A DNA stretch of 54,194 nucleotides, filler included, from Stramenopiles sp. TOSAG23-6 (lineage: Eukaryota): NCBI GenBank assembly GCA_900128565.1. It is 2 parts of 2 records of this genome, joined end to end, with 100 filler letters (N's around TTAATTAATTAA, not from the genome) between each part and the next. Parts side by side here need not be neighbours in the genome. Positions count along the whole stretch, not along the records: positions 1 to 27,236 come from LT635982.1; positions 27,337 to 54,194 come from LT635983.1. The stretch is one strand, 5' to 3'. Every line of letters begins with the position of its first letter. The stretch's first letter is position 1. Below, piece after piece: positions 102 to 40,300 of the stretch. The position numbers and the translations under genes were made by a program. The notes beneath the pieces are model-generated. The model worked only from the letters and a program-made list of their open reading frames with translations, did no database searches and was not told the origin of the DNA.

Positions 102-2064
102 ACAGGATCGCGATTATTTATTTGGTGCGTTGTCGCCGTATTTAGCTTTATTTTTGAAACGATCGTTACTGAGTTTGAATGAATTGCAAGTTAGAATTTG
201 GCCAAAACCATTTGAACATAATAAAAGTCCACAGAAGCGTACAAGAATAGTTGATGGAAATGCATGTAGTGAAAAAGCTATTTTGTATTATTCCGATAAA
301 ATGCCAAAAAATGATGATATTAATGCATATGTATTACGTATTATTCAGGAATTACGTAATGTATTTCGTGATAGAGGATTACTACTCGCTGTTGGCAGAG
401 GAATCACTACATCACTAAAATTTTTCACACGTTCTGCTCAAAAGATAATTATATCTACACCTGCAACATTTGAATTAAAGTTAGGTCAGTACAATGATAA
501 TATTAATGTCGATGTGGATGCTTCGCCAAAATTGACTACACAAAAAACACCAAAATTATCACCCGCTAAATATCATAATATTAGTGTTTATAAATCCTTG
601 TATATTGTCTGGAAATCTCTTGATTCATTTTTACTGTCTAAATCAGCACATTCACAACTAAACGATAATTATACTGTATTGCGCAGTTGTATATTACCTG
701 GAATTTTAGCTATTGAAGATCTTATGCGATCAATTCTAAGTCCATATTTTTCCTCGGCCTGTCACGATTTTCGTGGCATACTTTCACAAATGCATTTCGA
801 AAATTTTGGAAAAGGGTCTGGTAAAAAAGTATCGACTTATATGCACAAACTTCAATGGCGATTGGAACAATTTACAAAAATGTATTTGAATCCATTAGTT
901 TTACAGGATTTATTTGTAAAAAGCTCTGTTGGTGGTGGACAGTATGATGATGAAATATTGGGAGTTATGACACAACAATTATGTCAGCGTGTTGTTGTAG
1001 ACTTTATTAGAAATATTTCCTTGATTAGACCTTTATCTGAAGAAGGCAGGCTAAAATTGACTTGTGATTTAGCACAAATGGAACTGTCTCTTGGTCCATT
1101 AGTTGCAATATTATGTCATACTGGTATTCATAAAGGCAATAATTGTACTACAACTACTACACGGACAAATAATAACATGGAAAATCTTCAAACTCGAACA
1201 AATAATCAAAAAAAACATTCAATTAATGAAATTCTTGGTTCAGATATTTATGAAGAATTACGTGCATTTAGACCGTTATTGTTTCTAGATTCAAAAGATA
1301 TATCAAAAAATAATACAGAATTGTACAAATTACGCCCGAGTGTTTTTTGGCATCATCTTTTGGCTCGTTCTCCACCACAGCTTCAATTTCCATTTGAGTT
1401 TGATGTACGTTTTCTTTCTTTGTTTTTTCTGTTTTCTTTTATTTCTTTTATTTTTTCTCTTTCTTTTTTTTTACTTTTTCGTTTTGTCAAAAGGTTTTTT
1501 TTTTGTTTTGTCAAAAGATTTTTATTATAACATTTTTTTTTTCTTCAATATTTTCTCAAAATACATAATTCTACACAAGCAGCTTACATTAATTGGATGG
1601 AACAAGAAGGTAGAACACGGGCGTTGTCACTAGAAAATGGAAAAGCAGCAAATTTACATAGAAAAATCACTACTATTTCAACTGATTGTCATCAAATGAA
1701 ATCTGAAACTAAAAATTTATGTCATTTTGAAATGGCTCATTTGATTGCAGTTAAACCAATGAGTGTAGAATCTAGAGAACTTGTACGTTTTCATCATGAA
1801 TTTNATTTTTTTTTNTNTTTTTGTATGAAAATTTCGTACCTAACGAATTTCAATGTTTTGAAATATTTTTTCATAATACTTGAAGCGATTGTTAATGCAA
1901 AATTGAAACAGTGTCTCGATACGTATGCTAATAGAGTAAGTGCATCTCCAACTGATTCATTATGCGAAGAATATCAAATACTTTTGAAAGTAGGAAGAGA
2001 AATCTATGAAACATTTTACAGAACAATTTCTCTAAGAATGAAAAGAAGAATGAAAGATTTGTAA
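102..2064 (+). CDS. COG5: Conserved oligomeric Golgi complex subunit 5, 5'-truncated; exons ~102-1404, 1567-1782, 1882-2064
   Basis: COG5-like C-terminal motifs FIRNISLIRPLSEEGRLKLTCDLAQMEL, YEELRAFRPLLF and PPQLQFP. Removing the introns joins ...FEFD|NSTQAAYINWME and ...SREL|EAIVNAKL in frame. Confidence 0.85.
1405..1566 (+). other. Non-canonical intron GT..AT (162 nt, T-rich expanded)
   Basis: gat|gtacgtttt...aatattttctcaaaatacat|aat. Contains an in-frame stop; the nearby downstream AGs are out of frame. Confidence 0.8.
1783..1881 (+). other. Non-canonical intron GT..TT (99 nt, in frame)
   Basis: ctt|gtacgttttcatcatg...tcgtacctaac...aaatattttttcataatactt|gaa. Confidence 0.8.
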
Positions 2065-2333
2065 ATGTTTTTTTCTTAAGAATGAAAAGGGTGGCGAGAA
2101 TAGAAAGGAGGATGATCTGAAGAATAGTAAGGACATCTGTTTTTATATTTTCTGTGTTTCTCTTTTTATATTTTCTGTGTTTGAAGAATATAAAAAAATA
2201 AGTAAAGAATAACCAAAGAAGTCTTTCAAATCTTTCAACTTTTTCAATTATGTAACAAAATTGTACGCAAAATAGAGTATGACCCTAGTACTGTAGTAGG
2301 CATTGTGAGTTTTCAGACTTGATGATGAAATCA

Positions 2334-3098: not shown

Positions 3099-3943
3099 AT
3101 GAAAAATACAATGGATCTTCAAAGTGTTAAAAAAGTAGATAAAACAATAAGTCGTGCAAAATATGATGGACTTATTTTTGGAGCATTTATAATTGTAGCA
3201 CTCGCTAGTGTCGTTTCATACCTTATATTTTCGAAAGATAATCGACGAGAAACAACTTCTTTTGCTGACTGCCACTTCATTTCTTATACTGATGTGTCTA
3301 CTGGACGCGTGTCTCCTGAAGACGTGAAACATTTTACTATCGCAAGAGATGAGTTCCGCAAGACGGCTAGCAGACCAGTTGTGGCAGTCGAATATTGCCA
3401 CTCTGCTCTTTTAGAAAGTCGTTACGAAGCTAAAAAGGAAGAGTTGAAAAGAGATCATCAGTCAACTGAAGAAGAATGGGTTTGGCACGGAACCTCAACA
3501 AAAGAAAACATCTCGTCAATATTTACAAATGGATTTAGGGAACCAAAAAGTCGCTTTCGTGACAAGAATGGAGATGGAAAAGATCAAACATTAAAATACG
3601 GTGCAGCAATGTACGTTTTTTTTTTCAAACTCGATTTATTTTTTCGTACGAAATTTTGTACCTAACGAAAAAAATTTCAAATATTTTTCCAAAATACATA
3701 TACTTTACAACGCATACACTGAGAGCCATTGAGAAATATAGCGGAACAAATAGCCTTATTTTATCAAAATTACTTTTTGGGAATCGTGGGTACAATACCT
3801 ATGGTACAACTCAGGATGACAAGGAATATGATACATGGCTAGCAGAACCTACAGAAATTCCATTGGAGTTTGAATTTCGACGATTTTTCAGAATGGTAAA
3901 GTACAAAGATTTAGTATTGCCAGTGTATGTGGTTCATTATTAA
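3099..3943 (+). CDS. Membrane-anchored PARP/ART catalytic-domain protein; exons 3099-3610, 3700-3943 (251 aa)
   Basis: N-terminal TM helix. WHGT...IFTNGF motif, spliced YGAA|IYFT (cf. PARP YGxGIYF), and C-terminal VLPVYVVHY. Confidence 0.8.
3611..3699 (+). other. Non-canonical intron GT..AT (89 nt)
   Basis: gcaat|gtacgtttt...cgtacgaaattttgtacctaac...atatttttccaaaatacat|atac. This junction restores the IYF motif; the in-frame AG 24 nt further on would delete it. Confidence 0.85.
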
Positions 3944-4840: not shown

Positions 4841-4890
4841 ATAATAGTAGTATTGTAGATTTCTAAGTTCTAAGTAGTGTTGTGTGGAAA

Positions 4891-4993
4891 GATGACGTGA
4901 AATATTCAAAAATTTGAATTTTCTTAGGTACAAAATTTCGTACGAAATGAAATAAATTCGAAATTCAACGTTGAGGTGAAACGATGACGTGAA
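4891..4993 (-). repeat. Intergenic degenerate copy of the intron-family element, bounded by 11-bp direct repeats
   Basis: Minus strand reads ttcgtacgaaattttgtacctaag...aatattt. gatgacgtgaa occurs at 4891-4901 and 4983-4993. Confidence 0.7.
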
Positions 4994-5147
4994 TTGCTTT
5001 TTCGACGTTGATATGAAAGATGATGTGAAATGATTTTTTATAAAAATAAAAACTACACCAAAAACTACATTATTTGTTATCATCTTTATCAAAAAAATAA
5101 TATTTTACCGGGTAACCATTGTTATAAAAGAATCAAAAAGAATCGAA

Positions 5148-5371: not shown

Positions 5372-7218
5372 TTAATTACGTTTTTTATTGTGTAATGTCT
5401 TCATTCCAAATAAATTTGGTTTCAAATCTTTAGTTTTTTTCAAAAGTGTAAGTTGAATAAATGAATGAGTTGCATCAATTGTTTGTTGTATTACTTGAAG
5501 GGGATCTGCATAGCCTGCTTGTTTTGTTATTTTAGATAATATGTGAGGAAACCACAAAGGAACATCGCATATCAAAATTTTGTATAATATGTCAAAATTA
5601 AAAAAATATTAGCATTGCATATCCAAATGAAAAATATAAAAAAAAAAAAATATTACAAAAAAAAAGTATTACAAAAGATTAAAAAAAAAAATTAAAATGT
5701 AAAAATATTAAAAAAATACCCACGCATGTTGTGTACCCGGTAATACAGAGAGAATCGTATTTGTGCTATTATTCATTAGACGAAGAGTACATTCTTTATA
5801 AAAACGCAAATCAGGCCATGGTTCTGATAGTACAATAAATGTTGCTTTATCCTTCATCCCAGTATCAAGAATTGAAGTTTTCAGACATTCTGTCCCTATA
5901 ATTTGTGAAAGTTTTTTCGTAAAAAAATCGTTAGGTACAAAATTTGGTACGAAAAAAAAAATTTGAAATTCAAAAAAATTAAAACATACATGGATCATAA
6001 AGCACACAAGCAGAAAATATAGATTGTAGTTCTTGTGTTGCACATATAGCTGTAGCAGCACCAAAACTATGCCCACACATGATTAATTTTGAACTATCGA
6101 TACTCTGTAACAGATTATTAAGAAAAAACTTTTCTTTATTGAATTCATCCTCAATTTCATCTCCATTATTGTCTACAACGCCGACTGTATTTGTGAAAAA
6201 ATATTTTGTCTTGGTCCATTGAAAAAAACATTAGCTAGTACTAGGTGTGAAATTTCATACTAAAAAAAAATCATACTAAAAACAAAAATCATTGGATTAA
6301 ATGTAAAATTTGAAAAGAAAACAAAGAAAACAAAGAAAACAAAAATCAAAAATCAAAAAGAAAAGAAAACAAGAAAAACAAAATAAAAAAAAAATTAAAA
6401 AAAAAAAATAAAAAAAAAAACATACCTCTTGATGAATCTTTTTCTTGAAGAATTTCGCAAATACGGCTTATTTCTTTCACTCTATGTTGAAGCATTTTAC
6501 CTCGAAACTCTCTTAAAATGGAGAGATATTTTGGATATCCTTTTTTTTTTTTCATTTGGTGTTAGTTCTCTTGGAGGTTGATAGCCATGTATTGTGGAAA
6601 AATATTTTTTTTTGTACAATTTGTTAGGTACAAAATTTCGTACGAAAAAAAAACTAAATTCGAAATTCAAAACATAAAACATACATGGACGACACCATTT
6701 TCAGTTTTACAATAAGAAGCGGAGCCACACTCATGCTCTAGAATGATTGCAATATACCCCTTCTTTACAAAGTAGCTTGCCATAACAGAATGGATGTCGC
6801 AGTTTCCGTATAAACCATGTGAAAATACAACGACTGGGTATTTTTCATTTTCTGGTGGTTGGAGAATTGGTGGAGAATGATTGGAATCTTTTTTTGTAGT
6901 AAAACATGGACTTACAGCTTTACCAAGTCCGAAAAAACGAAATATATACTGAGACTTACCAACTGACTTTGCTAAATGCTCTAGTACGCCATTGCGCATG
7001 TAAGGGTAAGAGGTATACTCGTCGGAAGAATGTCTTGCGATAGGATAATAAATTTGCGCACAACATGACTTTGTAAATCGAACGCGAACAGCTCCAGTCT
7101 CTACCCCACTTTCCGTTGTCAACGATGTCGACAACCTTGGATATCGGTTATAAATACCAAGACCTAGGACTCCAATGCCAAGAGCCGTCATTCCTTTCAC
7201 CATTGATCCATTATTCAT
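5372..7218 (-). CDS. PAF-acetylhydrolase-like alpha/beta hydrolase; exons 7218-6685, 6586-6426, 6184-5990, 5895-5720, 5572-5372; one extra A in the 6541-6552 run
   Basis: YPVVVFSHGL, GHSFGAAT nucleophile motif, LYDP|W and PGTQHAW. Spliced length is 1267 nt (422 codons + 1). Confidence 0.85.
5573..5719 (-). other. Probable non-canonical intron GT..TG (147 nt, degenerate)
   Basis: tgg|gtatttttt...atacaaaattttg|ata gives HAW|ICDVP. There is no nearby AG; the exact acceptor is uncertain by multiples of 3. Confidence 0.55.
5896..5989 (-). other. Family intron GT..AG (94 nt)
   Basis: ccat|gtatg...gtacctaac...ttcacaaattatag|gg restores D-P-W. Confidence 0.85.
6185..6425 (-). other. Family intron GT..AG (241 nt)
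   Basis: agag|gtatgtttt...cacctag...aaaatattttttcacaaatacag|tc; the frame continues to GHSFG. Confidence 0.85.
6587..6684 (-). other. Non-canonical intron GT..AT (98 nt)
   Basis: cat|gtatgtttt...cgtacgaaattttgtacctaac...atatttttccacaatacat|ggc gives VVH|GYQ. Confidence 0.85.
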
Positions 7219-7444: not shown

Positions 7445-8777
7445 ATGACATCAACGTATACTGGTTATCAAGGATTTACACCAAATGCATATCGAAGAAC
7501 AGAAACTGAAAAGATAGCAAGCACTCAAGATCAGCGTGATAAAAAGTTTCGGCAAAATGGTGCCAAGGTTCTTGAGACAACAGCAGGATTTCAGACAACA
7601 ACAGCAAACTCTCAAAGCAATGTCAAACGTGAGCACTATGTTGCTGCTCTGGCTCGACCTTTGAACCCGCTCAAGGCAAAGGATCGCAAAGGGTTTTCAA
7701 CTAAAGAGTTTGTTCATAGTTCTTCGTATTCATCAACGTTTCCGAATTTTGTGCAGCAGTTGCTTGACTTAGAAGGTCCATCTGAACAAGAATATCGAGC
7801 AGCTTTTAAAAAGGTTGATGCAGATAATAGCGGCACAATCTGTGCAAAGGAGGTGTCCCTTCTCATTCGGCATTGTACAGGAAAAGTTCCAAATCCTCGA
7901 GTTGTAGATACATTTATGGTATTTTTTGATCGAAACGGTGACGGTAAAATTTCTTGGGATGAATTTGTTGACGCTCTTGGTCGCGTGGAAGCTCATATGA
8001 AACGTGAATTATCGTCAAAAAAAGACGGTACACTTTTCGGTAAAGATCCCCCGCGTAGTAATAAAGTTTTACCAACTCCATTACCAAAAACAAGCAATCA
8101 AACTGATTTGGGTTGTGCTGGAGAAGACCCAAGAAGTCGCTCAAAAGCTACAGGTTCGTTTCACTATGAATTTCTAAGATTGATTAGTCATATACTATTT
8201 ATAATTCTATATTTAACAAATTCAAAATTATACAACATATTTTCACAAAATCCAGGGAGTGATCTCTCTCAAGGGACTACAAAAGTAACCAACCATATTG
8301 CTGGGTATAGTGGACACATATCAACATATACACCTAATATTGGAGAAAATGTACGAGGTAACAAAAACGATCAAATGATTGTTGAGACATATAATGTGTA
8401 AGTTTTTATTATATATATGTCTGAGTGTTTGTATAACAAAGAAACGGCCGAATTGGTGCATTGGTGTATTTTTGTATCATCTACGTTTCATCGTGAATTT
8501 GAATTGTATTGTTCAAATATATTCATTTTTACTAGAAAATTCTGTACCTAATAAATTTCAAACGAAATATATTTTTCAACAATACATGAATCCTCCAGGC
8601 TATTCAGGAATTAAAAATTCAAATCCTCAAGGTATGGGTAATTTATCTACTGATAAGTCAAGAATTGATCGTTTAGTCGAAGACATGTGGAGAGAGCGAA
8701 ATGCTGGTAAAGGTAGTGTGCTCTCCGAAACTACACAAATGCTGAAACCATTCGTACCAAATTTTGAAGATCAATAA
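7445..8777 (+). CDS. EF-hand protein with (P)GYxG repeats, resembling ciliary microtubule-inner proteins; exons 7445-8153, 8256-8397, 8588-8777 (346 aa)
   Basis: EF loops DADNSGTI and DRNGDGKI; YTGYQGF, IAGYSGH and PPGYSG motifs. Confidence 0.75.
8154..8255 (+). other. Family intron GT..AG (102 nt, in frame)
   Basis: acag|gttcgtttcactatgaattt...tttaac...atattttcacaaaatccag|gg. Confidence 0.75.
8398..8587 (+). other. Non-canonical intron GT..AT (190 nt) with an internal decayed donor at 8481
   Basis: gt|gtaagttt...tctgtacctaat...atatatttttcaacaatacat|g gives YNV|NPPGY. Confidence 0.7.
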
Positions 8778-15042: not shown

Positions 15043-17608
15043 ATGAAGGTTCTTTTAGTTGATGCGTTCTCTAAAAGTGCAAAGGGACGATCACAGTTCA
15101 AGCAATTTTATGAAATTACTCGACAGTGCTTTGAACGAGCTTCCGAGGGAGTTCAACCGAATTATGTGGTTCGTTCATTTAGAAATTTAAAGGATTACAT
15201 ATATGAAGCCGATACCGAGTTTATGAACCCTCGTGCGTATCGTAATTTCGACTCCGTTGATTTTATAATTGTTGACGGGAATGCAAATTTAAGACCATGG
15301 ACACGTCAGGTCCGACAGTTATTGTTGCTATTCAAAATGGCAGTAATGACCCAAAAATGTTGTTTCCTTGCATCAGTAGGTTTTCAAACTCTTGTCCATT
15401 TATTCGCGACATCAGGAGTTAAATTAGAAATTCTCAATGGACCTGTCGGCGGACGCACAGAGGACCTGTCGTTTACAAAACCAGTGGTACGTGATAAAAA
15501 CGCTGTCATGTCACAGCCACTCCCTGTTTTTCTCGATAATAAAACTGGGGATTTGTTTTTTTATAGACCAAATAAGAAAGCATGGTGTGCTTGTTCTAAT
15601 GTTGGTATGCGTCTTGAAAGTGCTGCTGAAAGAAAGCGTGCGTTTTCATCATGAATTTCAAGTTTATTTTAAATTTATTTTTTGTACCAAATTTTGTACC
15701 TAACAATTTTTTGTAAGGAAAAAAAAATATTTTTCACAATATATGTGTGTATAGACCACAGTACCAGGTACACAAGGAAGTAGACGGACCTTACATGTCC
15801 AAGCCCACGTCTGAAACCGTTTGTATTATTCATATGAAATATGTACAACATTTCATATTCCGAAATATTCGAACTCATCGATTTGTTATTCCTCAACAAA
15901 ATAAATGGGTTGTTAATGAATCGGTTAACTCGCTGTCTTTTGCAAATTATAAACTTCTTGCAGATAATTCTAGGGAACCTCAAATTATCGAATATCAAAA
16001 CATACTTGGGATACAACCAAATATTCAAAATAGAAGTAAATATCCAGAAGTAGCACAGATGCTTGAAAACTATATTAATCATCTATATACACAGATGCGT
16101 CATAAGGATCATATTGATTCGCGTATAACGTCAACCAGTTGGGAATCTTTTGTAAATCAATTTTCAAGAAATCGAAACAAAGGAAAAATGAAAAGACCAG
16201 AAAGTAAAAGTATGTTTAATCAAATTCCGAAGCTAAATCAAAAGGAATTATCACCATCCATTGACACAATTGACGATGAAGATAGCTTTACGTTGTCAGG
16301 TTTGTCTTGTAGCAGTTCATTTGTAGATGCAAAGGAAAGAAATGTTAGACGAACTCAAAGCGCAACAGTTCGTTCGACACCAACAAATCGAAATTCTTCT
16401 AATCTACATAGTGGCCGCATCAATTATAAACAAAAATCAAATCTTAGCAGGAGACCTGAATCTGCTATGCCTCGGAGTTCTGGGTTTAGATCATCTCTAA
16501 AGGCCAAGGATCGACTTTTTAAACGTCGAAATTCTTTCAGTGTTGGAATTAGTAAAAAACAAGCTGTTGCGACATCTAATAATGGAATACGGAAAAGGTC
16601 AGCTGCAGAGGAAGAAAAAAAGAGGCTTGCAATTCAAGATCGAAGAAACATGCTTGGCGATTCGTTTACAATGACACCAGCAACTATACCAAAACTAGTA
16701 CCCTCCACAATTCCATCATCGCCAATGAGGGGATCAGGAATGGCAGCTGCAAAACGGCGTGTGAAAACAGCATCATTGGTCCGTCCAAAAGTTCAAGGAA
16801 ATAGATTTACACGCCGTGTCAATAGTGCTCGCCCTAGGAGTCGTTCTACTATATCGATTGCCTCCAATAAAGAGGCATTGAAACTAAATGAGACGCTTGA
16901 AGAAGAAACAAACAAAAAAGTGGTAACTAATAGATCTGATGTGTCTAAGCAATTTGTTGACTCCACCGGATCTGAACCTCTCTCCTCCAATACCAACTCC
17001 CAATCAAACAATTTTGATTCAAATAATAACGATTCAAAAATGAAAACTAAGGTCAAAGTAAAAGTACAAAAGAGAAGAACAAATCAACACGATACTCACC
17101 CTAAAAAACAATGGATGAATAAAATAGAAAATGATCGAAATAAAAGAGCAGGCAAAGTCAAAGTTGTGCGTACCAAAAAAAAAGTACCATTTTGTGCATT
17201 TGCTAAGCATTCGCGCAGAGAGAAAAGAGATCGACTTATTCCCGGATATGGCAATGGATGCGTCGTAACAGCATCAGGGCCTTATATGTCATATCATGAT
17301 CGAAAGATGCATGTATGTGTTCGTCCTTTTAATTTTAGTTTTTGTTTTCCAAAACATTTTGCGCACCTAACAGAATCATTAATTTTTTAAAATATTTTTT
17401 CATAATACAGGAGAGTAAAATTAGTAAAACTAAATGGATAGGAACCCGTAACTTTACTGCAGTAGTGGGTAAAGCTACAACAAACGATATTCCATGGTCT
17501 GGTTTTGTACGATGCAGTGGTCCTTATCGAGATGGAGTTGTGCAATTTAGAGATTTTTCAGGAGAAAAACTTAAAGCTGATCCATTGAAAAGACGCGGTT
17601 GGCAGTGA
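15043..17608 (+). CDS. Hypothetical protein with an N-terminal class-I-glutamine-amidotransferase-like fold and a low-complexity basic C-terminus; exons 15043-15637, 15745-17312, 17411-17608 (786 aa)
   Basis: MKVLLVDAF start, DFIIVDG and FLASVGFQTL; spliced length 2361 nt is divisible by 3. Confidence 0.7.
15638..15744 (+). other. Non-canonical intron GT..AT (107 nt)
   Basis: aagc|gtgcgttttcatcatg...gtaccaaattttgtacctaac...aatatttttcacaatatat|gt; the first downstream AGs are out of frame. Confidence 0.75.
17313..17410 (+). other. Family intron GT..AG (98 nt)
   Basis: cat|gtatgtg...cacctaac...aatattttttcataatacag|gag. Confidence 0.85.
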
Positions 17609-22361: not shown

Positions 22362-23881
22362 TTAAATATGTTTTTTTATTACTTTAATTAGTCGTTTAGC
22401 TCCTATCATAATATTTTCCCGTGATAACCAAGCAAAACTCAGTCTTATATATATCAAGGGAGTACCAATTGGAAATTCGTTAGGTGCTACATTTGGTAAA
22501 CATTTAACATTCCTTTTCAAACAACTCTTTATTGAACACTCTTGTGCAGTAAGTAGACTAATATTATTTTTCTCTAACGACTCCTTGAAAATCTTTTCAA
22601 TATCATTCTCTTTGCAGAGTTTTAGTCCCACCCACAAAAAGTAACCACCACGAGGTGGAGTAAATGTGATAACGTGTTCAGGTATTTCAGCTTGAACTGC
22701 TTCATTTTTCAAGGTATCGCATAAAGTATCGCAATTACGCTGAAGATATTGGCTGACAAAAGTAATGTGCCGCCTAATATCACCATTAGAAAGGGCAATT
22801 TCACATAAAGATGATATAAACCCACACATTAAACCACCAGAAGCCTCATAACCAATTTCCCCACTTTTTCCGCTCTGAAAGCACATGTATTGTGAAAAAA
22901 ATATTGAAGAAAAAAATCGTTAGATACAAAATTTCGTACAAAAAAATAAATAAATTTAAAATTCATGGTGAAAAAAACGCACATTTCTGATGATTTCGTT
23001 TGAATCCAGCCGAGCCGAATTCCAGGACTTAATATCTTGGAAAACGATCCCAAACTAAATACAGAATAAGGTTCATAATCAAGTAGAGCAAATGGTGGAG
23101 GTATTTCTTTACATGTTTTGTTTTCTGTATAGTTTTTTTCTACTTGAAAAAAAGAGTCAAATGAGAGAAATTGATAAACCTCATCTGCAATAATGGAAAA
23201 CTTAAAACGCTTTGAGAGATGAATAAGTTTCTTTCTACGATATATGGACATGGTTACACCAGTTGGGTTATGATGTATTGGAATGGTATAAATGCATTGT
23301 ACGCAATTATTTTCTCCCAATTCGAGCAACCTTTTCTCCAATAATTCAACACACACACCTTCATTGTCACATTCAATGCTTTCAATTCTAATTCCTGGAA
23401 AATTCCTAAGAATTTTTTCCACTAAAAAATAAGTTGGATCTTCGACAAATACAATTGGACATAATTCTGATGTGTGGGAATTCAAACCACCACCTACTTT
23501 TGGAGATGTATTAGTTGGAAATACGAAAGTCTTCACAGCAAATCGTAAAAGAAAATCGATGCCAAAAGACGCTCCTGGGATAATATACAGTTCATCTGGA
23601 GCAACTTGTTCATCACACTCATGAAAGTTAAAACTATTGATGAACTTTGAAAGAGCTATACGGAAACCTGCCTTATCCGTTTTCTTTAGGTATGAAGAGT
23701 ATCCAAGAATAGTAGTGGCAGCATCAGGAGTTTCAAGATTTATTTGACTTGTTAACGCAGAAACAGCAGATTTATTGATAATTTGAAGAGCCATTGCTAA
23801 GTGATTTGGAGCAGGTGAACCCTTTTTGAAATTAATTGTGTTATCAAGGTGTGCTTTGCGTATTTCTGGGATTGAAGCCAT
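22362..23881 (-). CDS. PLP-dependent class I/II aminotransferase (Aro8/2-aminoadipate type); exons 23881-22983, 22884-22362 (473 aa)
   Basis: VEDPTYF, HHNPTG, IIADEVY, GSFSKILSPGIRLGW, PRGGYFLW and IRLSFA. Confidence 0.92.
22885..22982 (-). other. Non-canonical intron GT..AT (98 nt)
   Basis: gaaat|gtgcgtttt...gtacgaaattttgtatctaac...atattttttcacaatacat|gtgc. An in-frame AG exists 12 nt downstream but would skip a nearer CAG. Confidence 0.75.
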
Positions 23882-27336: not shown

Positions 27337-27391
27337 AAAGTAAAGTAAAGTAAAGTAAAGTAAAGTAAAGTAAAGTAAAGTAAAGTAAAGT
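27337..27391. repeat. (AAAGT)n microsatellite inside a helicase intron at the contig end; mirrored at 54140-54194
   Basis: 11 pentamer units starting a few bases downstream of the donor ctt|gtatg at 27402 (minus strand). Confidence 0.9.
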
Positions 27392-27402
27392 GGACAACAT
27401 AC

Positions 27403-28626
27403 AAGGTTAAAAATGTTTCTATTCATAAGGTCTAAAAGTCTTCCAGGTGTAGCTATAACTATCTAAGTTGGTAGAAAATATGTAAAATAACAAAACATGT
27501 GAGTATTTGTACTATTTTCGAAAAAGTAGATAATGAGATGATTTCAAAGAAAGAAGAATAATAATAGTACGGAATGTGGTGAAAAAAAAATAATAAAATT
27601 TTGAATCTCAGAAGTAGAAAATGACGTCATCTTAGGGATACCAACACTGACATGGTTTTGCATCCCAAACTATAATCAGACATACGCTCGTCAAAGTGTG
27701 TTCAAATTTCCTCATAGATTTTACAAAATTATTATATTTTCAGTCGCAGAGTGACAAATGACAAATTCGAAATTGAAAATGTTTTTGCACCCATTTTATA
27801 CCTAAAGAAATAAAAAAAATAAAAAAAAATAAAAAAAATAAAAAACATAAAAATGAAATTCAAAATCTATAACACTTACCTCTGCACCACGTTGCATACT
27901 TCGAATCTGAGGTGCTTTATTTGCACCACCATATAATAGACAAGACCGCAAAGAGTGAACATATTTTTTTGGTGTCAACTTCATCGCTTCTTCTTTAATT
28001 TGCACGGCTAATTCTCTAGTAGGAACTAAGATCAAAGCTATGGGCCCAGTGTCTCCTTGTTTTGATGATTTGACTTTCATTTGTGCCTGGACATGTATCA
28101 TTGCTGGCAATAGAAATGCGGCTGTCTTACCAGATCCAGTCTGAGCTAAACCTACTACATTTTTGCCTTGTAGAGTAACTGGCCAAGACTGACTTTGAAT
28201 TGACGTCGGTGCTTTATACCCAAGGCTCAATAATTTCTCGACATATACACGAGGTAATGAACTACGTTTAAATCCCTTTACCGGGGCAGGTACACAACCA
28301 CTCACCCAAGCTTTGCTATTTGGAAACGGAGAGCCGTGCTCTGTTACTGTGAGATTCATTTTTGCTCGGAGAGAAGTGACCTCAGACTCACTGAGTTTAG
28401 CAACTTTACTATGTTCTGTATAAAAATCCCGGCGAAAGTCAGTCAAGGTTCGTTTTGACCAATCGATAGCAGGAAGTTCGATGGTACCACCACCTTTTCT
28501 TTGTTGCAAACAACCCGTGGAACTATAATTCACAAAACCCTTTTGTTTTAAGTCCGCGAGGCGACATTTTTTAGACGAACCTGAACCAGTCTCAGACGAA
28601 TACTTCCTTTTCGTAGCATTGGTCAT
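27403..28626 (-). CDS. DEAD-box RNA helicase, DBP2/DDX5-like, 3'-truncated; exons 28626-27880, 27462-27403
   Basis: PTSIQSQSWP, AQTGSGKT, PTRELA, and spliced GAE|IVIATPGRLLD across a canonical 417-nt GT..AG intron (27879-27463). Confidence 0.9.
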
Positions 28627-28955
28627 TTTCTACAATGAAAGAAAAGAAATATAGCAATAATGTGCCTTACTTGATACAGTGCTATGTAATCAAATGTCTA
28701 ACACAGTTCTCTAGGAAAGTGTCCGTAATCAAGTGGCTAGCTACAATATTACCTGTAGTAAAAAGTAGGAAGAAGTAAAGAACTCAAGTCAATTGTCAAA
28801 GACGCGCTGAATTTCTGCGATACGTACCCGGTACCCTATAAGAGCCAGCGAAAAAATTGAATACTTGACCATCAAACAATCTAATTCCGAAGGATTAGGT
28901 ATCTCCTGAACGAGCTTCTTCTCTTATCATTTGTAGATCCGGGAAAATATTTAGG

Positions 28956-31900
28956 ATGGACCCAACTTTTCAGACTCTTCTTACAGGTTTATGTAGCCCA
29001 GATAATGTTACGCGTGGTCAAGCAGAGAAGCAATATTTTAATTCTGTCTCTACGAACTCAACAGAAGTGCTTCAGCAGCTTTTGCTTGGACTTCAGTGTC
29101 CATCACCACAAGCTCGCGCTTTTTGTTCTGTTCTTGTGCGCCAAATGGTAAAAAAGGCATGGATATCGTTAGATGATGGCGCACGTGCTTTCACGAAAAA
29201 TGCCCTATTGGTTGCAATGGAATCAGAGGCTACTGAGCATATTCAAACCAAGTTAAGCCACGCCATTGCAGCTGTTGCATCTTTTGCACTTGAGGGTTGG
29301 CCAGAGCTTATTCCTCGAGTGCTTAACATGACATGTTCAGAATCTATCGGTGCCAGACGTAGTGCTATAAATCTATGTAGTGCATTAGCACTATCTTGTG
29401 AAAGTGCAGCAATATTACCTCATTATGAAAAATTTTGTTCAATGCTGGGGGCAAGGCTGAGTGATCCGGATGCTAAAGTTCGTAGCTACACTGTTCAAAC
29501 ATTTGCTTCATTGATACTTGCATTGGAAAAGGAACAATGGGTACCACTTCAACAAATGTTTCCTGCTTTATTGAGTGCGATACAGTTTACCCTTGTTGCT
29601 GGAGAAGAGCAAGTGGCAACAAGTGCGTTGGAGTCCCTGGCAGACACATGTGAAAATGCGCCAGCTTTTTTTAGACTTCCAACAATCTCCCTCCCTCTGT
29701 GCAACTCAATGCTTTCTATACTAAATCATCCTGATCCAGACCATTTCGAAGCAGCTACAAGGTCATCTGCATTAGAGATGTTAGTTGCATTTTGTACGGA
29801 ATGCAGTTCAACAGTTGTACGTTTCCATCATTTCAATTTCGAATTTATTTTTTTTTTCATAGAAAATTTTGTACCTAACGATTTTTTTTACTAACAAAAA
29901 AAAAAAAAAAATATTTTTCACAATACTTCGTCGTTTAGATTCGAATGGTGCCAAAGGAATTTCTGGTTTGAGCTTAATTGACGAAATAATTTTTTCTGGT
30001 TTAAAAATGCTCTGTCGTGTAAGTGAAGACGATGACGAGGAATGGGGTTCTTCTATTGACCGGTCACCATTTGGTTGTGCAGAAACCGATAATGAGGCCT
30101 GGGTTGCTGGAAGTGCTCTTGAACGATTATCCGAAAATCTCGGTGGTGCCGCAGTTGTTCCTAGGTTAATGCCTCATATTTCTTCAATGTTGAATAGTAA
30201 TAGATGGCAAGAAAAATGGGCAGGGACTATGGGACTTGCAGTATGCTGTGCATCGCCAATGTGGTCCTCAATTAGTTCAATATTTGATGTTTTATTGCCT
30301 CTTCTTGAGCAATCCCAACCTGAAGGTTCTCCTGGAGAGCGCGTTCGTTTTGCAATTGCATACTTGATTGGTATTTTTTGTGAATATTTCACTGGAACAG
30401 AAGTGGACAACACTGGCCACGGACGTGTGGCAAATCAACAACTAAAGGCACAGATTGCTATGGGTGGTCCAAAACCTGGAGAAAGTTTTCAAGTTGTGCA
30501 TGGTAAACGCGTTTTATCAATATTGGCAAAAGTTTTGGATATAAAAGAATCCACTTCTCGAGTACAAGCTGAAGCTGCATATACATTATGTGTATTTTGC
30601 ACTGCTCAACAAGCATTACCTGTCGGAGCAGTACAAATTATTTCATCTGTGGCACCTCGAGTACTTAGCGCCTTACATGATTTACTCCGTATGAGCTCTT
30701 GTATTGCAGCTCAACAATATGCAATCACGGCGGTTGCAAGCATTGCCCAGGTACTTGGTGAAGATTTTGGTCACTTTTATAGTACATTTATGCCCCTAAT
30801 GAAATTTGTACTTAAAGGAGCTACGGGAAAAGAGCAAAGATTACTGCGCGGCAAGGCTATGGAATGCGTTGGTATTTTGGGATCCTGTGTTGGTGCTGAA
30901 GTGTGTACGTTTTCGTCGTTTATTTCAAATTTATTTTTTTTTCATACGAAATTTTGTACTTAACAAAATCTCCATTTTTTTTTACATTTCTTTTCACGAT
31001 ACATTTGCCATTGATGCAAAAGAGGTGATGGATATTTTACTCGCAACTCTTCAACATGGTATTGCTCCTGATGACCCTCAGGCATCGTATATAGCACAAA
31101 CATGTTGTCGTATAGGAAAGACGATGGGATCACAATTTGTACCGTATTTACCTCTTGTTTTACCGTCTTTGCTAAATGCTGCTGCCAATGCAGATAAAGA
31201 TGTATTAGTTCACCAAGACAGTACAGAAGAACTTGATAAAGAACTATTTGAAGGTCGCGAGATTATGGAAGTTATTGTTCGTGGGGCAGGTAAACAGAGA
31301 ATAGGTATTAACACTGCTGCAATTCAAGAAAAGTCATTAGCTTGTAATATGTTGTATGAATATGCGATGGCAATGGGTGGGTTATATGCTCCATGGGTTG
31401 AAAAAACTGTTGGTGTCTTGCTGCCTTTGGTGTCGTTTCAATTCTCTGGACATGTTCGCGTCGCTGCAGCGATGTCTTTACCAAAACTTCTTTTATCCCT
31501 TTTGGAAAATCCTTCGACAAAAACGTCAAATGGTCCTCAACAATTGTTTATAGTTGCTGTGAATGCTATAGTGAACCAATTAAAGGTTGAACAAGAAGTC
31601 GAATTAATTGTTTGTCTCCATGAGAGCCTTGATGAAATGTTACAACATGCTGCCAATGAAAATGGAGTACAATTGTTTCTCACAGATGCAGTAATACTCA
31701 TGATATTTGAAGTAATTTCAACTAATTGTATTGCAAGTATAAAACGACGAATCAATGCATGTCGTGCTTTGCGAATGGGTGATGCTGAAGCTGATGATGT
31801 TGCATTTATACAGTTAGAAGAGGAAGAAGAATTAGAGGGTGATTTACTTAATACTACAATTGATGTAATCGGTGCGTTAGCTAAGTTGATGAAGGGGAAG

Positions 31901-32790
31901 ATTTTTAATGCATTTAGTCAACATTTTGGACAATTACTTATGGCAATGCTTCATATGATAGATCACAATTCTACGGACACGTTTTTTGCTACTGATGCCT
32001 CGACAGTTGCTAGCGATTCAATTCGTTCTGGATTAGCTACTGCGGCTCTTTGCATTGCTGATGATATTATTGAATATTGCATGCCTGGGGCTGCTGTTTT
32101 AGTTCCATCTGTAGTCCCTTATATGTTGAATGGTGCTAATAGTCCTGATCCAGAATTACGCCAATCAGCTGTTTATGGTTTAGGTGTTTGCGCAGAACGT
32201 GGAGGTTCTGCATTTACACCTGCACAAGCTACCGAGGCATCTTCTAGACTTGTCGCTGTTGTGACTGCCCCAAATGCTCGAGAGGGTGACAATGCATGTG
32301 CATCGGACAATGCAATCACTGCGGTTGCAAAACTGTTCTTACATCGTGGTACTACGGTACGTTTTCATCATCAATCTCAAATTATTTTTTTTTATAACAA
32401 AGTTTTAACCTAACAATTTATTTTTGAAAATATTTTCCTACAATGTATGCCGGAGGAGACGGGTCGATAAATACTGAACAATTATTCAAATGCTGGATGA
32501 ATTACCTTCCTGTGAGGGACGACATTGAAGAAGGCGAAAAGATGCATTCTTTACTTGTTTCTTTAGCATTGAAAGGAGATGGTCGTGTTCTTGGTACAAA
32601 TATGTGTAATTTATCTCGGTTTTGTGAAATTCTTGCGGAGGCCGTACAAGCTGAACTTATCGATGAGGTCACTCATGTTCGTATTTCAGCTTTATTTACT
32701 AATTTACAATCCACTCCATCTACCAGTGCATGTTTTAGCAAGGCATGGGCTAGTGTCAATCCAGTTCACCAGAAATTGTTAATGAATTAA
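28956..32790 (+). CDS. IPO5: Importin-5 (karyopherin beta-3/Kap121); exons 28956-29816, 29929-30904, 31005-32356, 32449-32790 (1176 aa)
   Basis: RLLRGKAMECV, DDPQASY, FVPYLPLVLP, GINTAAIQEKSLAC and RQSAVYGLG motifs; spliced length 3531 nt is in frame. Confidence 0.92.
29817..29928 (+). other. Non-canonical intron GT..TT (112 nt); duplicate at 51603-51714 (-)
   Basis: gtt|gtacgtttccatc...gtacctaac...atatttttcacaatactt|cgt gives CSSTV|RRL; nearby AGs are out of frame. Confidence 0.85.
30905..31004 (+). other. Non-canonical intron GT..AT (100 nt); duplicate at 50527-50626 (-)
   Basis: gtgt|gtacgtttt...gtacttaac...ttttcacgatacat|ttgcc gives GAEVFAIDAKEVM; the first downstream AG would create TAG. 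Confidence 0.85.
32357..32448 (+). other. Non-canonical intron GT..AT (92 nt)
   Basis: acg|gtacgttttcatc...aacctaac...aaaatattttcctacaatgtat|gcc; nearby AGs are out of frame. Confidence 0.75.
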
Positions 32791-36667: not shown

Positions 36668-36742
36668 TCACTTCTATAAAGTCCAAAGATGGCTGTCTTT
36701 CTGAAAATTTAGTAGATGTCATAGACTGCTTTGTACCAGTAC
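36668..36742. repeat. 75-bp inverted copy of coding sequence 33874-33950
   Basis: Reverse-complement match with one 2-nt deletion. Confidence 0.9.
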
Positions 36743-37280: not shown

Positions 37281-37317
37281 TAAATTTGAAAAAGAAAGAT
37301 TTTTAGAATTATTTATA

Positions 37318-40300
37318 TTAACGTCTTCGCGTTCCCATGTGCATCGAACCTCCTTCGCCATCTTTTTTTTTCACTACTATTTTTGAAGCTTCCGTTCCAT
37401 TAGTTATTGTATGCCGTTCTTTTGTTTCTTCTTCAAGTAGATATTCTTCTTCTTGAGTCTGAGACATGAAATCGAAATGTGGCATTTGGCTGCCTATAGA
37501 TATTTTTTCTCGTAAATCTTTATGCGTCACGGGAAATATTTGAAAGTAAACATCTCCGCTTGCTTTTGCTGCAAGTTCTTCTTCTTCCATATCTAGCGAT
37601 TCATTATTCTTCAAAACAGTTTTTAGCATATCACCTGCTTGCTTCAATGTCTTATGGTATAAAACTTTCGGTACATCTTTTCGTATATTCATACACAATG
37701 TAAATAGAACATAAATAGCAGTAGATCCGTGTGGGTGAATTTCGAGAAGGTTTCGAAATGTGTCGATGGCATTAGACGGTTTTTTGACGAGAAATTCATT
37801 AGCAGTTGAAAATATTTTCAATTTTGGTGCAATACGCTTTCGAAAAAATCGATTATCTTCAGTAACAAAAACAGTTATTAGTTTCTTTAGTCTATCCGCG
37901 TCCCGTTTGACTTTGTCGAGGTCAGCAGGCATCATGTAAAATCGCTTAAATATGGACATTGTTGGCGCGTATAATGCACGAAAATATTTAATAGCAAATC
38001 TCTGAACAGCAATCGCAATTAATTTTTTAAAAAAGTAATCACAGAGCCACCGTTGGTATTCAGTAAATTTTTCATGTAAAGTTTCACAAATCAAATCAAT
38101 GTGATCATCGTTGGTTTCAGTATTTTCATCACGATGACTTCCCCATGACATGAACGTTTCCTTAAATACAGGACTGAGGAATGCGAAGGAGGAATCTAAC
38201 ATAGTAGAAATAGCAATAAGACCGCCCTCAAGAAATAAATGCGTCAAATCATGAAAATCAACTTCAAATTTCAACATAATAGGTTTGAGCGCTGATTGAA
38301 GACTATCTAATTCTTCCATACAAGAAAAACAATCGTTTGCATGAGCTGCTGCAAATCTCTCATCTGTGTTTGGACCCAATATTCTTATTTTTGATGATAT
38401 TGAGCTTTGATATTTATGTAATGTAGAAATGGCTATATGGAGCATTTCAGCAACCAGAGATTCAACTTGTGTCTCTTGTACGACTTTAACGTATTCATAT
38501 ATCAAATTAAATACATCTACAGGTGCCATCGTAAAAATTTGTCCCATTTCATTTGATCTATAAAATTCAGTATTATCCTGATTATCAGTATCTAATAACC
38601 CTTCAACTATTCGCGAAAAAAAATCATCAATCTCAGGCTTGGAGATTGAAGCATAACGAGTAATTAAATTATGGTAATCATCCTCAAGTTCCTCGGGTTG
38701 AATATGTAGCCTCTGTAATATATCAGTTCCACTAACAACATGGTTGAGCACAACATTATATTGTGACATGAAATGTATTAAAGCAATACACTCATCTTGA
38801 TCTAATTGATCTGGTTTTGAACATAAACATTGTATTTGATTCACTAATTGCATGTGGTAATAATTCAAGTAAAACATAAGAACATCAGTACGAGGCTGAC
38901 GTTTGGTATTTGTTTTTCCATCATTATTTCCTTTTACCAGTTTACACTCTCGAGATATCTCATCTAGATCTTCTAACAAACGACCACCAGCAGTTACAAG
39001 CCCAAATACATCTGGTGGTTTTTCTTTTGTAGATATTACTCCTGAAAATATATGTTCAAAACTTTTAAATACTGCCTCAAGTCTTTCTGCAGATGTACTG
39101 ATATCAAATCGCTCAATCCAAGAAATATGTGCTTTTGGACTGTCTAATGATGTTGGACTGTCTAATTTTGGCGGTGTTATTGAAGATTTATTACTTTGTC
39201 GTCCAGTATCTATCTCTAAATGTGTAGAAGGATTCATTGATATTTTCCTTGCCTTTTTTAGTGATTTCAACCATGCTTCCATTTCATGTCGGGTGTGTCC
39301 TTGAAGCCTGAATCCCCATTCGTAACCAAACACATCAATTTGTTTACACCCATCATAACTTTGCGCCCATTTTATCCACCTTACATGCTTTAAATATATC
39401 ATTTTTTGGTATGTTGTATCTGTCGCTGTTTTATATATATATAGAATGGAACCAGTAAGGCGAATAAATCTAATTAACCATTTATGTCCCTTGAAAGTAT
39501 CTTCTGCCCACAATTCAAGATATCCTTCATTAGTATGTTCAATATAATCACCATCTTCATTATTCCCATCGAATTTATCTAAATGTCCTGACGTAGCAAA
39601 TTCCTCACTAACGTTTGCTATAGTTCCATCCTCTGAAAGTTCGGTGCAACCTCGGGACACTAAAGATTTTATCCACTCTTCATACTCAACTTCATTTCTA
39701 GCTTGTGCTTCATATACATGATGATGAGATGAGCCCGATATTTCAAAGGAATTACGCGTAATTCCTATCGCAATCTTAACTTTCATTTCATCCTCTGACT
39801 CGTACATGTTATTATTTAATCGCCATACCAGAGAATTCTTCAATGAGATGCCTGTATTGATACTTTCAGTAGGATCGGGCATAAGTGGATACGAAATTCT
39901 TCGCCCAGCTTTGATATCTGGTCTATTTACAATACTGCTAATACTAGATTCAATATGACCTAAAAACGTCCTTCCGTGCAATGAATTTGAATCCCAAACT
40001 ACCACGTGAAGTACGGCATTAGCAATTTCATATACATCAAATTCAAATTCTTCATTACGCCATACTCCAAGTCCATTTTGAGACACAGTTGTGATATGCG
40101 TAGTTTGTTTTTCAAACTTTTGGTGATGATCGGTATTATTTTCTTCGATGTATTGTGAAAAAATATTTCAAAAAAAAATCGTTAGGTACGAAATTTCGTA
40201 TGAAAAAACAATTAAATTATAAATTCATATAAAACGTACATGAATACTTCAGCAAATACTCTTGGTGGACGATTTGCGTCTAAATGAAGCAATTCTTTAA

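What the first reader, a model, noticed from the sequence alone, without database searches (positions are those of the whole stretch)
1403..40241. 2-bp direct repeat plus 4-bp terminal inverted repeat around the introns: introner/MITE-like origin
Seen: the last two intron bases equal the last two upstream-exon bases in 10 family introns. These are AT/AT (3, 1405, 3611, 6684, 22982, 40239), TT/TT (1783, 29817) and AG/AG (6425, 8154). Both TT-ending introns follow a TT exon end. The core runs GTAY...ATAC, and GTAT is the reverse complement of ATAC. Established: introner elements are non-autonomous transposons that can use their target-site duplication as a splice site. Inference: here the duplicated target dinucleotide, whatever it is, becomes the acceptor, so the insertion is removed scarlessly. 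An alternative is that splicing itself favours matching dinucleotides.
Basis: partly seen in the sequence, partly recalled or inferred. Interest (0 to 1): 0.82.

Follow-up and report, generated by a model that had tools for sequence, protein, structure and literature searches.

The report
Repeated intron family lacking AG ends
A marine protist contig carries a family of look-alike short introns that mostly seem to end in AT or TT instead of the near-universal AG, and the idea that this end is a copied insertion-site dinucleotide is suggestive but unproven.

Summary
They are a selection. I count 16 introns of this architecture, and 6 of them do not show the repeat.

The introns are an introner-like family. 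The layout is GTAYGTTTT, then CGTACGAAATTTTGTACCTAAC, then ATATTTTTCACAATAC plus 2 nt. Fourteen are detected by a family profile. Mean pairwise identity of 13 copies is 71%, against 45% for shuffled controls.

Reading frames place the 3' boundary 2 nt after ATAC. For intron 30905, 45 of 45 homologs confirm this at residue level, and GT-AG alternatives lose 27.7-69.9 bits. So non-AG 3' ends are real.

In that same intron the exon ends GT and the intron ends AT. Four of four exon ends other than AT, TT or AG sit beside an AT intron end. This argues against "whatever the target is becomes the acceptor".

The match is 10 of 16 against 5.75 expected (P=0.006). All locus-specific signal comes from the two TT/TT introns; without them P=0.17. 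Intron 22982 probably uses an AG 12 nt downstream.

There are no terminal inverted repeats. No RNA reads could be laid. A 2-bp target duplication is plausible but not shown.

The parts
3..101 (+). Family intron i3, AT|GTATG...ATACAT|. An alternative AG end lies at 105. The upstream exon is off the window.
1405..1566 (+). Intron i1405, AT/AT, 162 nt. Its ends are family-like but its interior is T-rich, and the family profile does not detect it.
   Evidence: With this donor there is no in-frame AG within 200 nt.
1783..1881 (+). Family intron i1783, TT/TT. It contains 3 N.
   Evidence: An in-frame AG alternative lies at +30.
3611..3699 (+). Family intron i3611, AT/AT, in a PARP-like gene.
   Evidence: An in-frame AG alternative lies at +24.
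4885..4985 (-). Intergenic family-like core copy. It lacks the GTAYG and ATAC ends, lies inside a 36-nt tandem repeat, and is flanked by TTGAA on both sides.
   Evidence: (E=8e-9, profile positions 13-86)
5896..5989 (-). Family intron i5989, exon end AT, canonical ...TTATAG end.
6185..6425 (-). Family intron i6425, AG/AG, ends ...ATACAG, 241 nt.
6587..6684 (-). Family intron i6684, AT/AT, in a PAF-acetylhydrolase-like gene.
   Evidence: There is no in-frame AG within 75 nt.
8154..8255 (+). Intron i8154, AG/AG, GTTCG...ATCCAG. Its 102 nt are stop-free in frame. It is the most diverged member (54-65% identity).
8398..8587 (+). Intron i8398, GT|GTAAGT...ATACAT|. The family unit starts about 90 nt inside it, at ...AT|CTACGTTTCATCG.
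15638..15744 (+). Family intron i15638, GC|GTGCG...ATATAT|.
   Evidence: In-frame AG alternatives lie at -27 and +36.
17313..17410 (+). Family intron i17313, exon end AT, ends ...ATACAG.
22873..22982 (-). Family intron i22982. The ATACAT box ends at 22885, but homologs favour the AG acceptor at 22873.
29817..29928 (+). Family intron i29817, TT/TT, in an importin-5-like gene.
30905..31004 (+). Family intron i30905, GT|GTACG...ATACAT|. The junction is confirmed at residue level. Its end is not AG.
32357..32448 (+). Family intron i32357, CG|GTACG...ATGTAT|. The boundary is not resolved by homology.
40148..40239 (-). Family intron i40239, AT/AT. It joins ORFs of 703 and 943 codons and splits a C2 domain.
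49109..54194 (-). Exact inverted copy of 27337-32422. It re-lists i29817 (at 51714), i30905 (at 50626) and a truncated i32357 (at 49174). These are not counted as independent introns.

Best explanation
The window is gene-dense DNA of an uncultured marine protist. A public source names two of its proteins GSMAST32..., a marine-stramenopile label.

What is there. Nearly all introns in the window belong to one introner-like family of about 90-110 nt. Each copy carries:
- its own 5' splice site, GTAYGTTTT;
- a branch-site-like CGTACGAAATTTTGTACCTAAC;
- a T-run;
- a conserved 3' box, ATATTTTTCACAATAC.

How it is removed. Excision runs from the GT to 2 nt beyond ATAC. Most copies therefore end in AT (8-10 of 16) or TT (2 of 16), not AG. 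AG is used where a mutation (ATACAG) or a nearby downstream AG offers one.

Shown:
- family homology;
- a 3' boundary at ATAC+2 modulo 3, by reading frame;
- one non-AG junction fixed by homology.

Inferred:
- The family spread by insertion into coding DNA, mostly just after AT, with a 2-bp duplication that lets excision be scarless. Later substitutions eroded the match.
- This organism's spliceosome defines the 3' site by the ATAC box rather than by AG.

The acceptor is not free. Only AT, TT and AG are seen.
For: Family.
- A profile built from 7 copies finds 17 places at E<1e-3. These are 14 distinct introns, 2 duplicates and 1 intergenic copy.
- The core pattern occurs 9 times against 0 in 100 shuffles.
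- 13 copies are 54-85% identical, mean 71%, against 45% for shuffled controls.

Boundary.
- With the donor at the conserved GT, joining at ATAC+2 keeps both long ORFs open. This holds in 8 of 8 testable non-AG introns with an intact ATAC, or 9 of 9 with i8398, whose donor I chose by frame.
- 7 of 11 non-AG introns have no in-frame AG within 75 nt that keeps the downstream ORF.
- i30905: 45 of 45 importin homologs show no indel within 10 columns of the junction. The split codon gives F, which is F in 43 of 45. Shifts of 3 or 6 nt lose 6.8-10.6 bits. GT-AG alternatives lose 27.7-69.9 bits.

Repeat.
- 10 of 16 matches against 5.75 expected, P=0.006.
- Both TT-ending introns follow TT. They are not each other's nearest relatives: 74% to each other, against 81-82% to other copies.
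- Exon-end AT is found in 8 of 16, against 9.6-11% background.
- Two mismatches (GT/AT) are one A-to-G change from AT. In i30905 that change is a synonymous third position (sequence).

Mobility. One core copy lies outside any gene.

Precedent. Introner families that carry the 5' site and take the 3' site from a duplication are described (PMC9860276, passages).
Against: - No RNA evidence. Read laying gave nothing.
- All locus-specific signal is two introns. Without them P=0.17.
- 4 of 4 exon ends other than AT, TT or AG pair with AT. Two of them (GC, CG) need two substitutions each.
- i22982, counted as AT/AT, probably ends at an AG 12 nt further on.
- i29817 (TT/TT) is not fixed by homology. 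Some GT/GC-AG alternatives score +1 to +4.3 bits.
- There are no terminal inverted repeats, and no transposase in the window.
- Copies are 15-46% diverged, so this was not a recent burst.
- The family was not found in any collection scanned, so no empty sites are available.
- A further T-rich intervening sequence (about 5560-5715, minus strand) has no AG and is not in frame at ATAC+2.
Confidence: 0.5

Rival explanations
1. There is no target duplication. ATACAT is the family's own 3' end and is inherited with each copy, for example through reverse splicing of an excised intron or another route that leaves no duplication. Exon ends are AT because insertion or retention favours ...AT|GTAYGT, for instance through pairing with this organism's U1. 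That would parallel the ordinary AG|GT exon-end consensus. The two TT/TT pairs are coincidence.
For: - The intron ends AT in 4 of 4 cases where the exon ends GT, GT, GC or CG.
- Among AT-ending introns alone the match carries no information: 6 of 10 against 6.0 expected.
- There are no terminal inverted repeats.
- The direct repeat does not extend beyond 2 nt. Position -3 gives 5 of 16 against 5.25, and intron position +1 gives 9 of 16 against 9.0.
Against: - Both TT-ending introns follow a TT exon end. Given the margins the chance is 1 in 120, or about 0.01 from the TT background of 9-11% (my arithmetic).
- The two TT copies are not sister copies. The TT end would therefore have arisen twice, each time beside TT.
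Confidence: 0.28
2. This is not a mobile family. An intron-poor genome holds its few introns to near-consensus splicing signals, as yeasts and some parasites do. The shared sequence is constraint, not descent by copying.
For: - The best-conserved blocks are the 5' site, the CTAAC block and the 3' box.
- Copies are as much as 46% diverged.
- Introns 1405 and 8154 share mainly their ends.
Against: - Blocks with no known splicing role are also shared, such as ...CATCATGAATTTCGAATTTATTTTTTTTT... and CGTACGAAATTTTG. Lengths cluster at 89-112 nt in 13 of 16 introns.
- One core copy lies in intergenic DNA without any splice signals.
Confidence: 0.1
3. Splicing is ordinary GT/GC-AG at other donors or downstream AGs. 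On this view the ATAC+2 register is a by-product of frame-based boundary calling.
For: - Every one of the 11 non-AG introns has 6-43 frame-keeping GT/GC-AG pairs within -60..+90 nt.
- i22982 is best explained this way.
- For i32357 and i29817 some such pairs score slightly better, by +6.1 and +4.3 bits.
- The public gene models use only GT-AG.
Against: - For i30905 all such pairs lose 27.7-69.9 bits.
- The alternatives use weak donors such as GTTTTC or GTATTC beside a conserved GTAYGT.
- The public models achieve GT-AG only by splitting the importin gene and reading 54 nt into intron 32357 to a stop.
- 8 of 8 in-frame joins at one fixed register is not expected by chance.
Confidence: 0.07
4. 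The family is processed by a minor-spliceosome-like (U12-type) system, which tolerates varied 3' terminal dinucleotides, GT-AT included.
For: - The 5' block and the TAAC branch block are long and highly conserved, while the 3' dinucleotide is flexible.
- GT-AT is reported among non-canonical U12-type introns and as competent for U12-type splicing (PMC1557818, passages).
Against: - The 5' block is GTAYGTTTT, not [AG]TATCCTT (consensus recalled).
- The TAAC block lies 33-50 nt from the 3' end, not about 10-20 nt (recalled range).
- A T-rich tract follows the TAAC block.
- No snRNA gene lies in the window to test this.
Confidence: 0.05

Closest known systems
Introner elements that carry one splice site and take the other from a target-site duplication. 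Examples are Micromonas pusilla IE1 (3-nt duplication) and Chrysochromulina sp. (4-bp duplication, no inverted repeats, carries the 5' site and co-opts the 3' site). Sources: PMC11282704 and PMC9860276, passages read.
   Same: - Many sequence-similar short introns sit at unrelated gene positions.
- The element brings its own 5' site.
- A short direct repeat spans the exon end and the intron end, so removal is scarless.
- A family without inverted repeats has precedent.
   Different: - In those families the co-opted 3' site is AG. Here it is mostly AT or TT.
- The putative duplication here is only 2 nt and is seen in 10 of 16 introns.
- No presence/absence data or genome-wide counts exist here.
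Amoebophrya introner elements and non-canonical introns (PMC7789003, passages).
   Same: - A marine protist with repeated introns and non-GT-AG borders.
- Direct repeats overlap the exon/intron boundary, so the exact cut is ambiguous.
   Different: - Amoebophrya elements have 8-20 nt inverted repeats that form a hairpin, 3-5 nt direct repeats, and no fixed terminal dinucleotides. U1 snRNA was not detected there.
- Here the 5' site is a textbook GTAYGT, no pairing of the ends is predicted, and only the last two bases deviate.
Fritillaria borealis non-canonical introns (as summarised in PMC11282704, passages).
   Same: - Transposon-derived introns whose 3' site comes from a duplicated exon motif ending in ...AC or ...AT.
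- The host spliceosome is tolerant of non-AG ends.
   Different: - Fritillaria introns are mostly AG-AC or AG-AT, follow exonic TAC, and have inverted repeats.
- Here the 5' end is GT and there are no inverted repeats.
Rare GT-AT introns of animals, both U2-type and U12-type (PMC1557818, passages).
   Same: The same terminal dinucleotide pair, with an otherwise good 5' site.
   Different: Those are a handful per genome. Here GT-AT would be the main class in the window (8-10 of 16).
Nonconventional introns of euglenids and hemistasiid diplonemids (PMC12621601 and PMC11282704, passages).
   Same: Non-canonical borders, with short direct repeats at the junctions.
   Different: Those lack U1-type 5' sites and pair their two ends. 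Here neither is the case.

Membership tests
Introner / introner-like elements | Many introns with mutual sequence similarity at non-homologous positions of unrelated genes | tested here: met
   14 introns in at least 8 different genes are detected by one profile. Mean identity is 71% against 45% shuffled. Host genes include PARP-like, PAF-AH-like, EF-hand, aminotransferase, importin-5-like and C2/PH/Sec6.
Introner / introner-like elements | Evidence of recent mobility: presence/absence between strains or relatives, or near-identical copies | not testable with these tools
   No genome is held. The family is absent from the scanned collections. The closest pair of copies is 85% identical.
Introner / introner-like elements | Target-site duplication with a locus-specific match | tested here: inconclusive
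   10 of 16 against 5.75 expected, P=0.006. The signal is carried by two TT/TT introns, and P=0.17 without them.
MITE (non-autonomous inverted-repeat DNA transposon) | Terminal inverted repeats | tested here: not met
   The consensus fold has 0 pairs. Only internal palindromes and A/T runs are found in 4 of 4 copies scanned. GTAT/ATAC is a perfect 4-mer in 4 of 16 introns.
MITE (non-autonomous inverted-repeat DNA transposon) | A cognate autonomous element with the same ends | not testable with these tools
   No transposase domain was found among the ORFs and exons that I scanned against Pfam (26 queries, covering 24 of the 27 ORFs of 200 aa or more). The rest of the genome is not available.
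U2-type GT-AG spliceosomal introns | 5' GT with a U1-type extended site, and a CTAAC-type branch site | tested here: met
   GT is present in 16 of 16. GTAYG is present in 12 of 16. TAAC is invariant in the 13 aligned copies. This is sequence only; no RNA was examined.
U2-type GT-AG spliceosomal introns | 3' terminal AG | tested here: not met
   4 of 16 end in AG at the family position, and at most 6 of 16 if i3 and i22982 use nearby AGs. i30905 is fixed as non-AG by homology.
U12-type introns | 5' [AG]TATCCTT, and a TCCTTAAC branch site close to the 3' end (consensus recalled) | tested here: not met
   The 5' block is GTAYGTTTT. The TAAC block lies 33-50 nt from the end.
Nonconventional introns (euglenid, diplonemid, Amoebophrya type) | Base pairing that brings the two intron ends together, with variable borders at both ends | tested here: not met
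   No consensus structure is predicted. The 5' border is constant.

The most novel reading that the evidence does not exclude
In this marine stramenopile lineage the spliceosome sets the 3' splice site by a conserved ATAC box plus two bases, largely regardless of what those bases are. A mobile intron family exploits this by making a 2-bp target duplication, usually AT. Every insertion into coding DNA is then removed without a scar. GT-AT, not GT-AG, becomes the main intron class of the genome.
Probability: 0.25. Interest if true: 0.82.

Novelty: new variant of a known kind. Interest (0 to 1): 0.62.

Why it matters
If transcripts confirm it, this would be a free-living protist in which an otherwise textbook intron, with a yeast-like 5' site and branch site, routinely ends without AG. 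That would make it a natural system for asking how the second step of splicing picks its site.

It would also be a further independent case of intron gain by a spreading element.

There is a practical consequence already. Public gene models for this organism assume GT-AG. They therefore split or truncate genes at these introns: the importin-5-like gene is cut into pieces, and one model reads into an intron. Proteomes used for marine reference databases are affected.

Tried and rejected
- RNA and DNA reads. Runs that hold the window exist, including 5 RNA metatranscriptome runs with small shares. Read laying returned nothing. So there is no junction evidence and no test of intron-free alleles.
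- Whole genome. None is held.
- Earlier findings.
- Collection scans with the family core pattern. They returned 68 stretches from metagenomes, 3 from viral contigs and 31 from prokaryote genomes. None is a family member. The best nhmmer E-value was 0.01 among the 68 and 0.076 among the other 34. One inspected by eye (L019) was unrelated.
- PARP junction (3611). Exon 1 matches PARP15 and Pfam PARP. Exon 2 alone matches nothing. A homolog search with exon 1 found nothing. So the argument that ATACAT| keeps a G-x-G-x-Y-F motif rests on recall only.
- C2 domain across intron 40239. Only the downstream half is detected, so there is no junction test.
- Public annotated proteins P0121 and P0241. They use GT-AG only and are not evidence for or against.
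- Rfam. Only tRNA-Phe is found, and no snRNA.
- Literature searches. They found no description of this family or of GT-AT introns in marine stramenopiles. Supplementary tables of the introner surveys were not available and may list this genome.


Full report
**Setting.** The window is AT-rich, 30-42% G+C in 2-kb bins, and densely packed with genes on both strands. It carries one tRNA-Phe.

Pfam finds these domains:
- DUF4116
- plant-type LRR
- a sugar porter
- an Arf plus EF-hand protein
- BMT5-like methyltransferase
- C2/PH/Sec6
- PARP
- PAF-acetylhydrolase
- an importin-5-like HEAT protein
- a DEAD helicase fragment

The best relatives of the sugar porter are only 36-40% identical. Two proteins of the window are found letter for letter in a public eukaryote proteome, under names beginning GSMAST32. 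This points to an uncultured marine stramenopile. DNA of the window is also held by seawater metagenome runs.

**The introns.** A regular expression for the branch-like core, and then a profile built from seven copies, find 17 places at E<1e-3. These are 14 distinct introns, 2 exact duplicates and 1 intergenic copy. Two more introns (1405, 8154) share the family's ends. That makes 16 introns, tabulated.

The consensus is GTACGTTTTCATCnTGAATTTCAAATTTAnTTTTTTTTTTnTACnAAATTTTGTACCTAACAAATTTTT...TTAAAATATTTTTTCACAATACAT.
- The core pattern occurs 9 times, against none in 100 shuffles.
- Thirteen aligned copies are 54-85% identical, mean 71%. Shuffled controls aligned the same way give 45%.
- The host genes are unrelated, so this is an introner-like family.
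- Long stretches of the window (9-15, 18-22, 24-29, 33-37 and 42-49 kb) hold single-ORF genes and no family 3' box.

**Where the 3' boundary lies.** With the donor at the conserved GT, joining the exons 2 nt after ATAC keeps the long upstream and downstream ORFs in one frame. This holds in 8 of 8 testable non-AG introns with an intact ATAC, or 9 of 9 with 8398, whose donor I chose by frame. By my arithmetic a fixed register in eight introns has a chance of about (1/3)^8.

- With that donor, 7 of 11 non-AG introns have no in-frame AG within 75 nt that keeps the downstream ORF. These are 1405, 6684, 8398, 29817, 30905, 32357 and 40239.
- Four do have one: 1783 at +30, 3611 at +24, 15638 at -27 and +36, and 22982 at +12.
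- If other GT or GC donors within 60 nt are allowed, every intron has some frame-keeping GT/GC-AG pair, 6 to 43 of them. So frames alone do not exclude canonical splicing.

**Homology tests: importin-5-like gene.** I built a profile from 45 full-length homologs (1,000-1,200 aa) taken from the 150 listed. I scored alternative spliced models made inside scripts.

- Intron 30905. The ATAC+2 junction aligns with no relative indel within 10 columns in 45 of 45 homologs. The split codon encodes F, which is F in 43 of 45. Moving the acceptor by 3 or 6 nt loses 6.8-10.6 bits. The GT-AG alternatives lose 27.7-69.9 bits. This intron therefore ends without AG. Its cut is either GT...ATACAT| or, shifted by 2 nt, GTGTACG...ATAC|. 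Both give the same protein.
- Intron 29817 (TT/TT). The rule beats its 3- and 6-nt neighbours by 2-4.9 bits, and R-R after the junction matches R/K in 43 of 45. But a 10-residue insertion follows, and some GT/GC-AG alternatives score +1 to +4.3 bits. It is unresolved.
- Intron 32357. Alternatives score up to +6.1 bits in a length-variable region. It is unresolved.

**Homology tests: aminotransferase.** All 40 homologs aligned, out of 120 listed, lack the four residues that an ATACAT| acceptor at 22982 would add. The AG 12 nt downstream is the optimum, at +6.6 bits.

**The dinucleotide repeat.** Six family introns do not match:
- AT/AG at 5989 and 17313
- GT/AT at 8398 and 30905
- GC/AT at 15638
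- CG/AT at 32357

Permuting intron ends among introns gives these results:
- 10 of 16 matches against 5.75 expected, P=0.006.
- 9 of 16, P=0.02, if 22982 ends in AG.
- P=0.03 if intron 3 is also dropped.
- P=0.17 without the two TT introns.
- No information among AT-ending introns alone (6 of 10 against 6.0 expected).

By position, only -2 departs from expectation, at 12 of 16 against 9.0 (P=0.009). Positions -3 and -4, and intron starts against downstream exon starts, do not. So the repeat is at most 2 nt.

Separately, exon ends are enriched for AT, 8 of 16 against 9.6-11% of dinucleotides in 32 kb of coding sequence (P about 5e-5 to 1e-4).

- The two TT introns are not each other's nearest relatives (74% to each other, against 81-82% to others). 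This argues against one inherited TT variant.
- Two mismatches (GT/AT) are one A-to-G change from AT. In 30905 that base is a synonymous third position.
- In 8398 the family unit begins about 90 nt inside the present intron, right after ...AT (sequence).
- The GC and CG exon ends need two changes each.

The intron end is AT, TT or AG and nothing else. It stays AT beside four different non-matching exon ends. So the acceptor is not 'whatever was duplicated'. The 3' site looks like a property of the ATAC box, with AT as its normal end.

A 2-bp duplication remains the simplest account of the TT/TT pairs and of scarless removal, and it has precedent. Introner families that carry the 5' site and co-opt the 3' site from a duplication, with or without inverted repeats, are described in PMC9860276 (passages) and PMC11282704 (passages). 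But it rests on two introns seen post hoc.

The alternative is an inherent ATACAT end plus a preference for ...AT| insertion or retention sites. That is analogous to the usual AG|GT exon consensus, and it fits the mismatches better and the TT pairs worse.

**No MITE hallmarks.** The consensus fold of 13 copies predicts no pairs. In 4 of 4 copies scanned, only internal palindromes around CGTACG and complementary A/T runs appear, with no terminal arms. GTAT/ATAC is a perfect 4-mer in 4 of 16 introns. I found no transposase domain among the ORFs and exons that I scanned against Pfam, which cover 24 of the 27 ORFs of 200 aa or more.

One family-like core lies in intergenic DNA at 4885-4985 (minus strand, E=8e-9, profile positions 13-86). 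It has no GTAYG or ATAC ends, sits inside a 36-nt tandem repeat, and is flanked by TTGAA on both sides. It hints that the core exists apart from the splice signals.

**Comparison with known systems.** Passages were read in each paper named.
- Amoebophrya introners have hairpin-forming inverted repeats, 3-5 nt direct repeats and no fixed termini (PMC7789003).
- Fritillaria introns are mostly AG-AC or AG-AT after exonic TAC (PMC11282704).
- Euglenid and hemistasiid nonconventional introns pair their ends (PMC12621601).
- GT-AT occurs as a rarity in animals, both U2- and U12-type (PMC1557818).
- The present family differs from all of these. It keeps a textbook 5' site and branch block and deviates only in its last two bases.
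- A paper on single-cell genomes of marine stramenopiles does not mention splice sites ('splice' and 'canonical' each occur 0 times). It describes gene models combined from protein, transcript and ab initio evidence (PMC5778133). I did not establish that the window comes from that work.
- The public models I recovered use GT-AG only. One (P0241) starts 24 nt after intron 30905 and reads 54 nt into intron 32357 to a stop. The other (P0121) uses the AG at 22873 and removes a further 66-nt in-frame piece that lacks any family feature.

**Limits.**
- No transcript evidence could be obtained.
- No genome is held.
- The family was not found elsewhere.
- The sample is 16 introns from one 54-kb window. 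About 5 kb of that window is an exact inverted duplicate, and I excluded it from all counts.
- Supplementary tables of the introner surveys, which I could not see, may already list this genome.

Noticed in passing
window 27337-32422 and 49109-54194: The two stretches are exact reverse complements of each other: 5086 bp, 100% identity, no gaps. One breakpoint falls inside intron 32357. The other abuts the N run at 27237-27336 and an (ACTTT)n tract. This looks like an assembly or amplification chimera rather than biology.
   Followed up: partly
window 4885-5038, minus strand: A 36-nt tandem repeat of 2.1 copies, with a further partial unit at 4885-4905. One unit is interrupted by a family-like intron core of about 60 nt, flanked by TTGAA on both sides. 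The repeat unit contains a TGACGTG motif.
   Followed up: partly
window about 5560-5715, minus strand: A T-rich intervening sequence of about 150 nt in the PAF-acetylhydrolase-like gene (GTATTT...ATTATAC). It has no AG at all before the next exon. Joining at ATAC+2 is out of frame, while joining right after ATAC is in frame.
   Followed up: partly
window about 6499-6562, minus strand: The exon between introns 6684 and 6425 changes frame across a run of 13 T (plus strand, about 6541-6553). This is probably a homopolymer length error in the assembly.
   Followed up: no
window 28956-32790 and 22365-23881: The public gene models are wrong at the family introns. The importin-5-like gene is split, and one model (P0241) reads 54 nt into an intron. 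The aminotransferase model (P0121) removes an extra in-frame 66-nt piece (22512-22577) with no intron features.
   Followed up: yes
window 33874-33950 and 36668-36742: A 77-bp inverted repeat, 97% identical. One copy lies inside the coding ORF 32980-34461 (minus strand). The other lies in the spacer after the Arf/EF-hand gene.
   Followed up: no
window 22873-22982, minus strand: The 12 nt between the ATACAT box and the AG acceptor (GTGCTTTCAGAG) resemble the intron's own start (GTGCGTTTTTTTCAC). It looks as if a second, truncated copy start follows the first.
   Followed up: no
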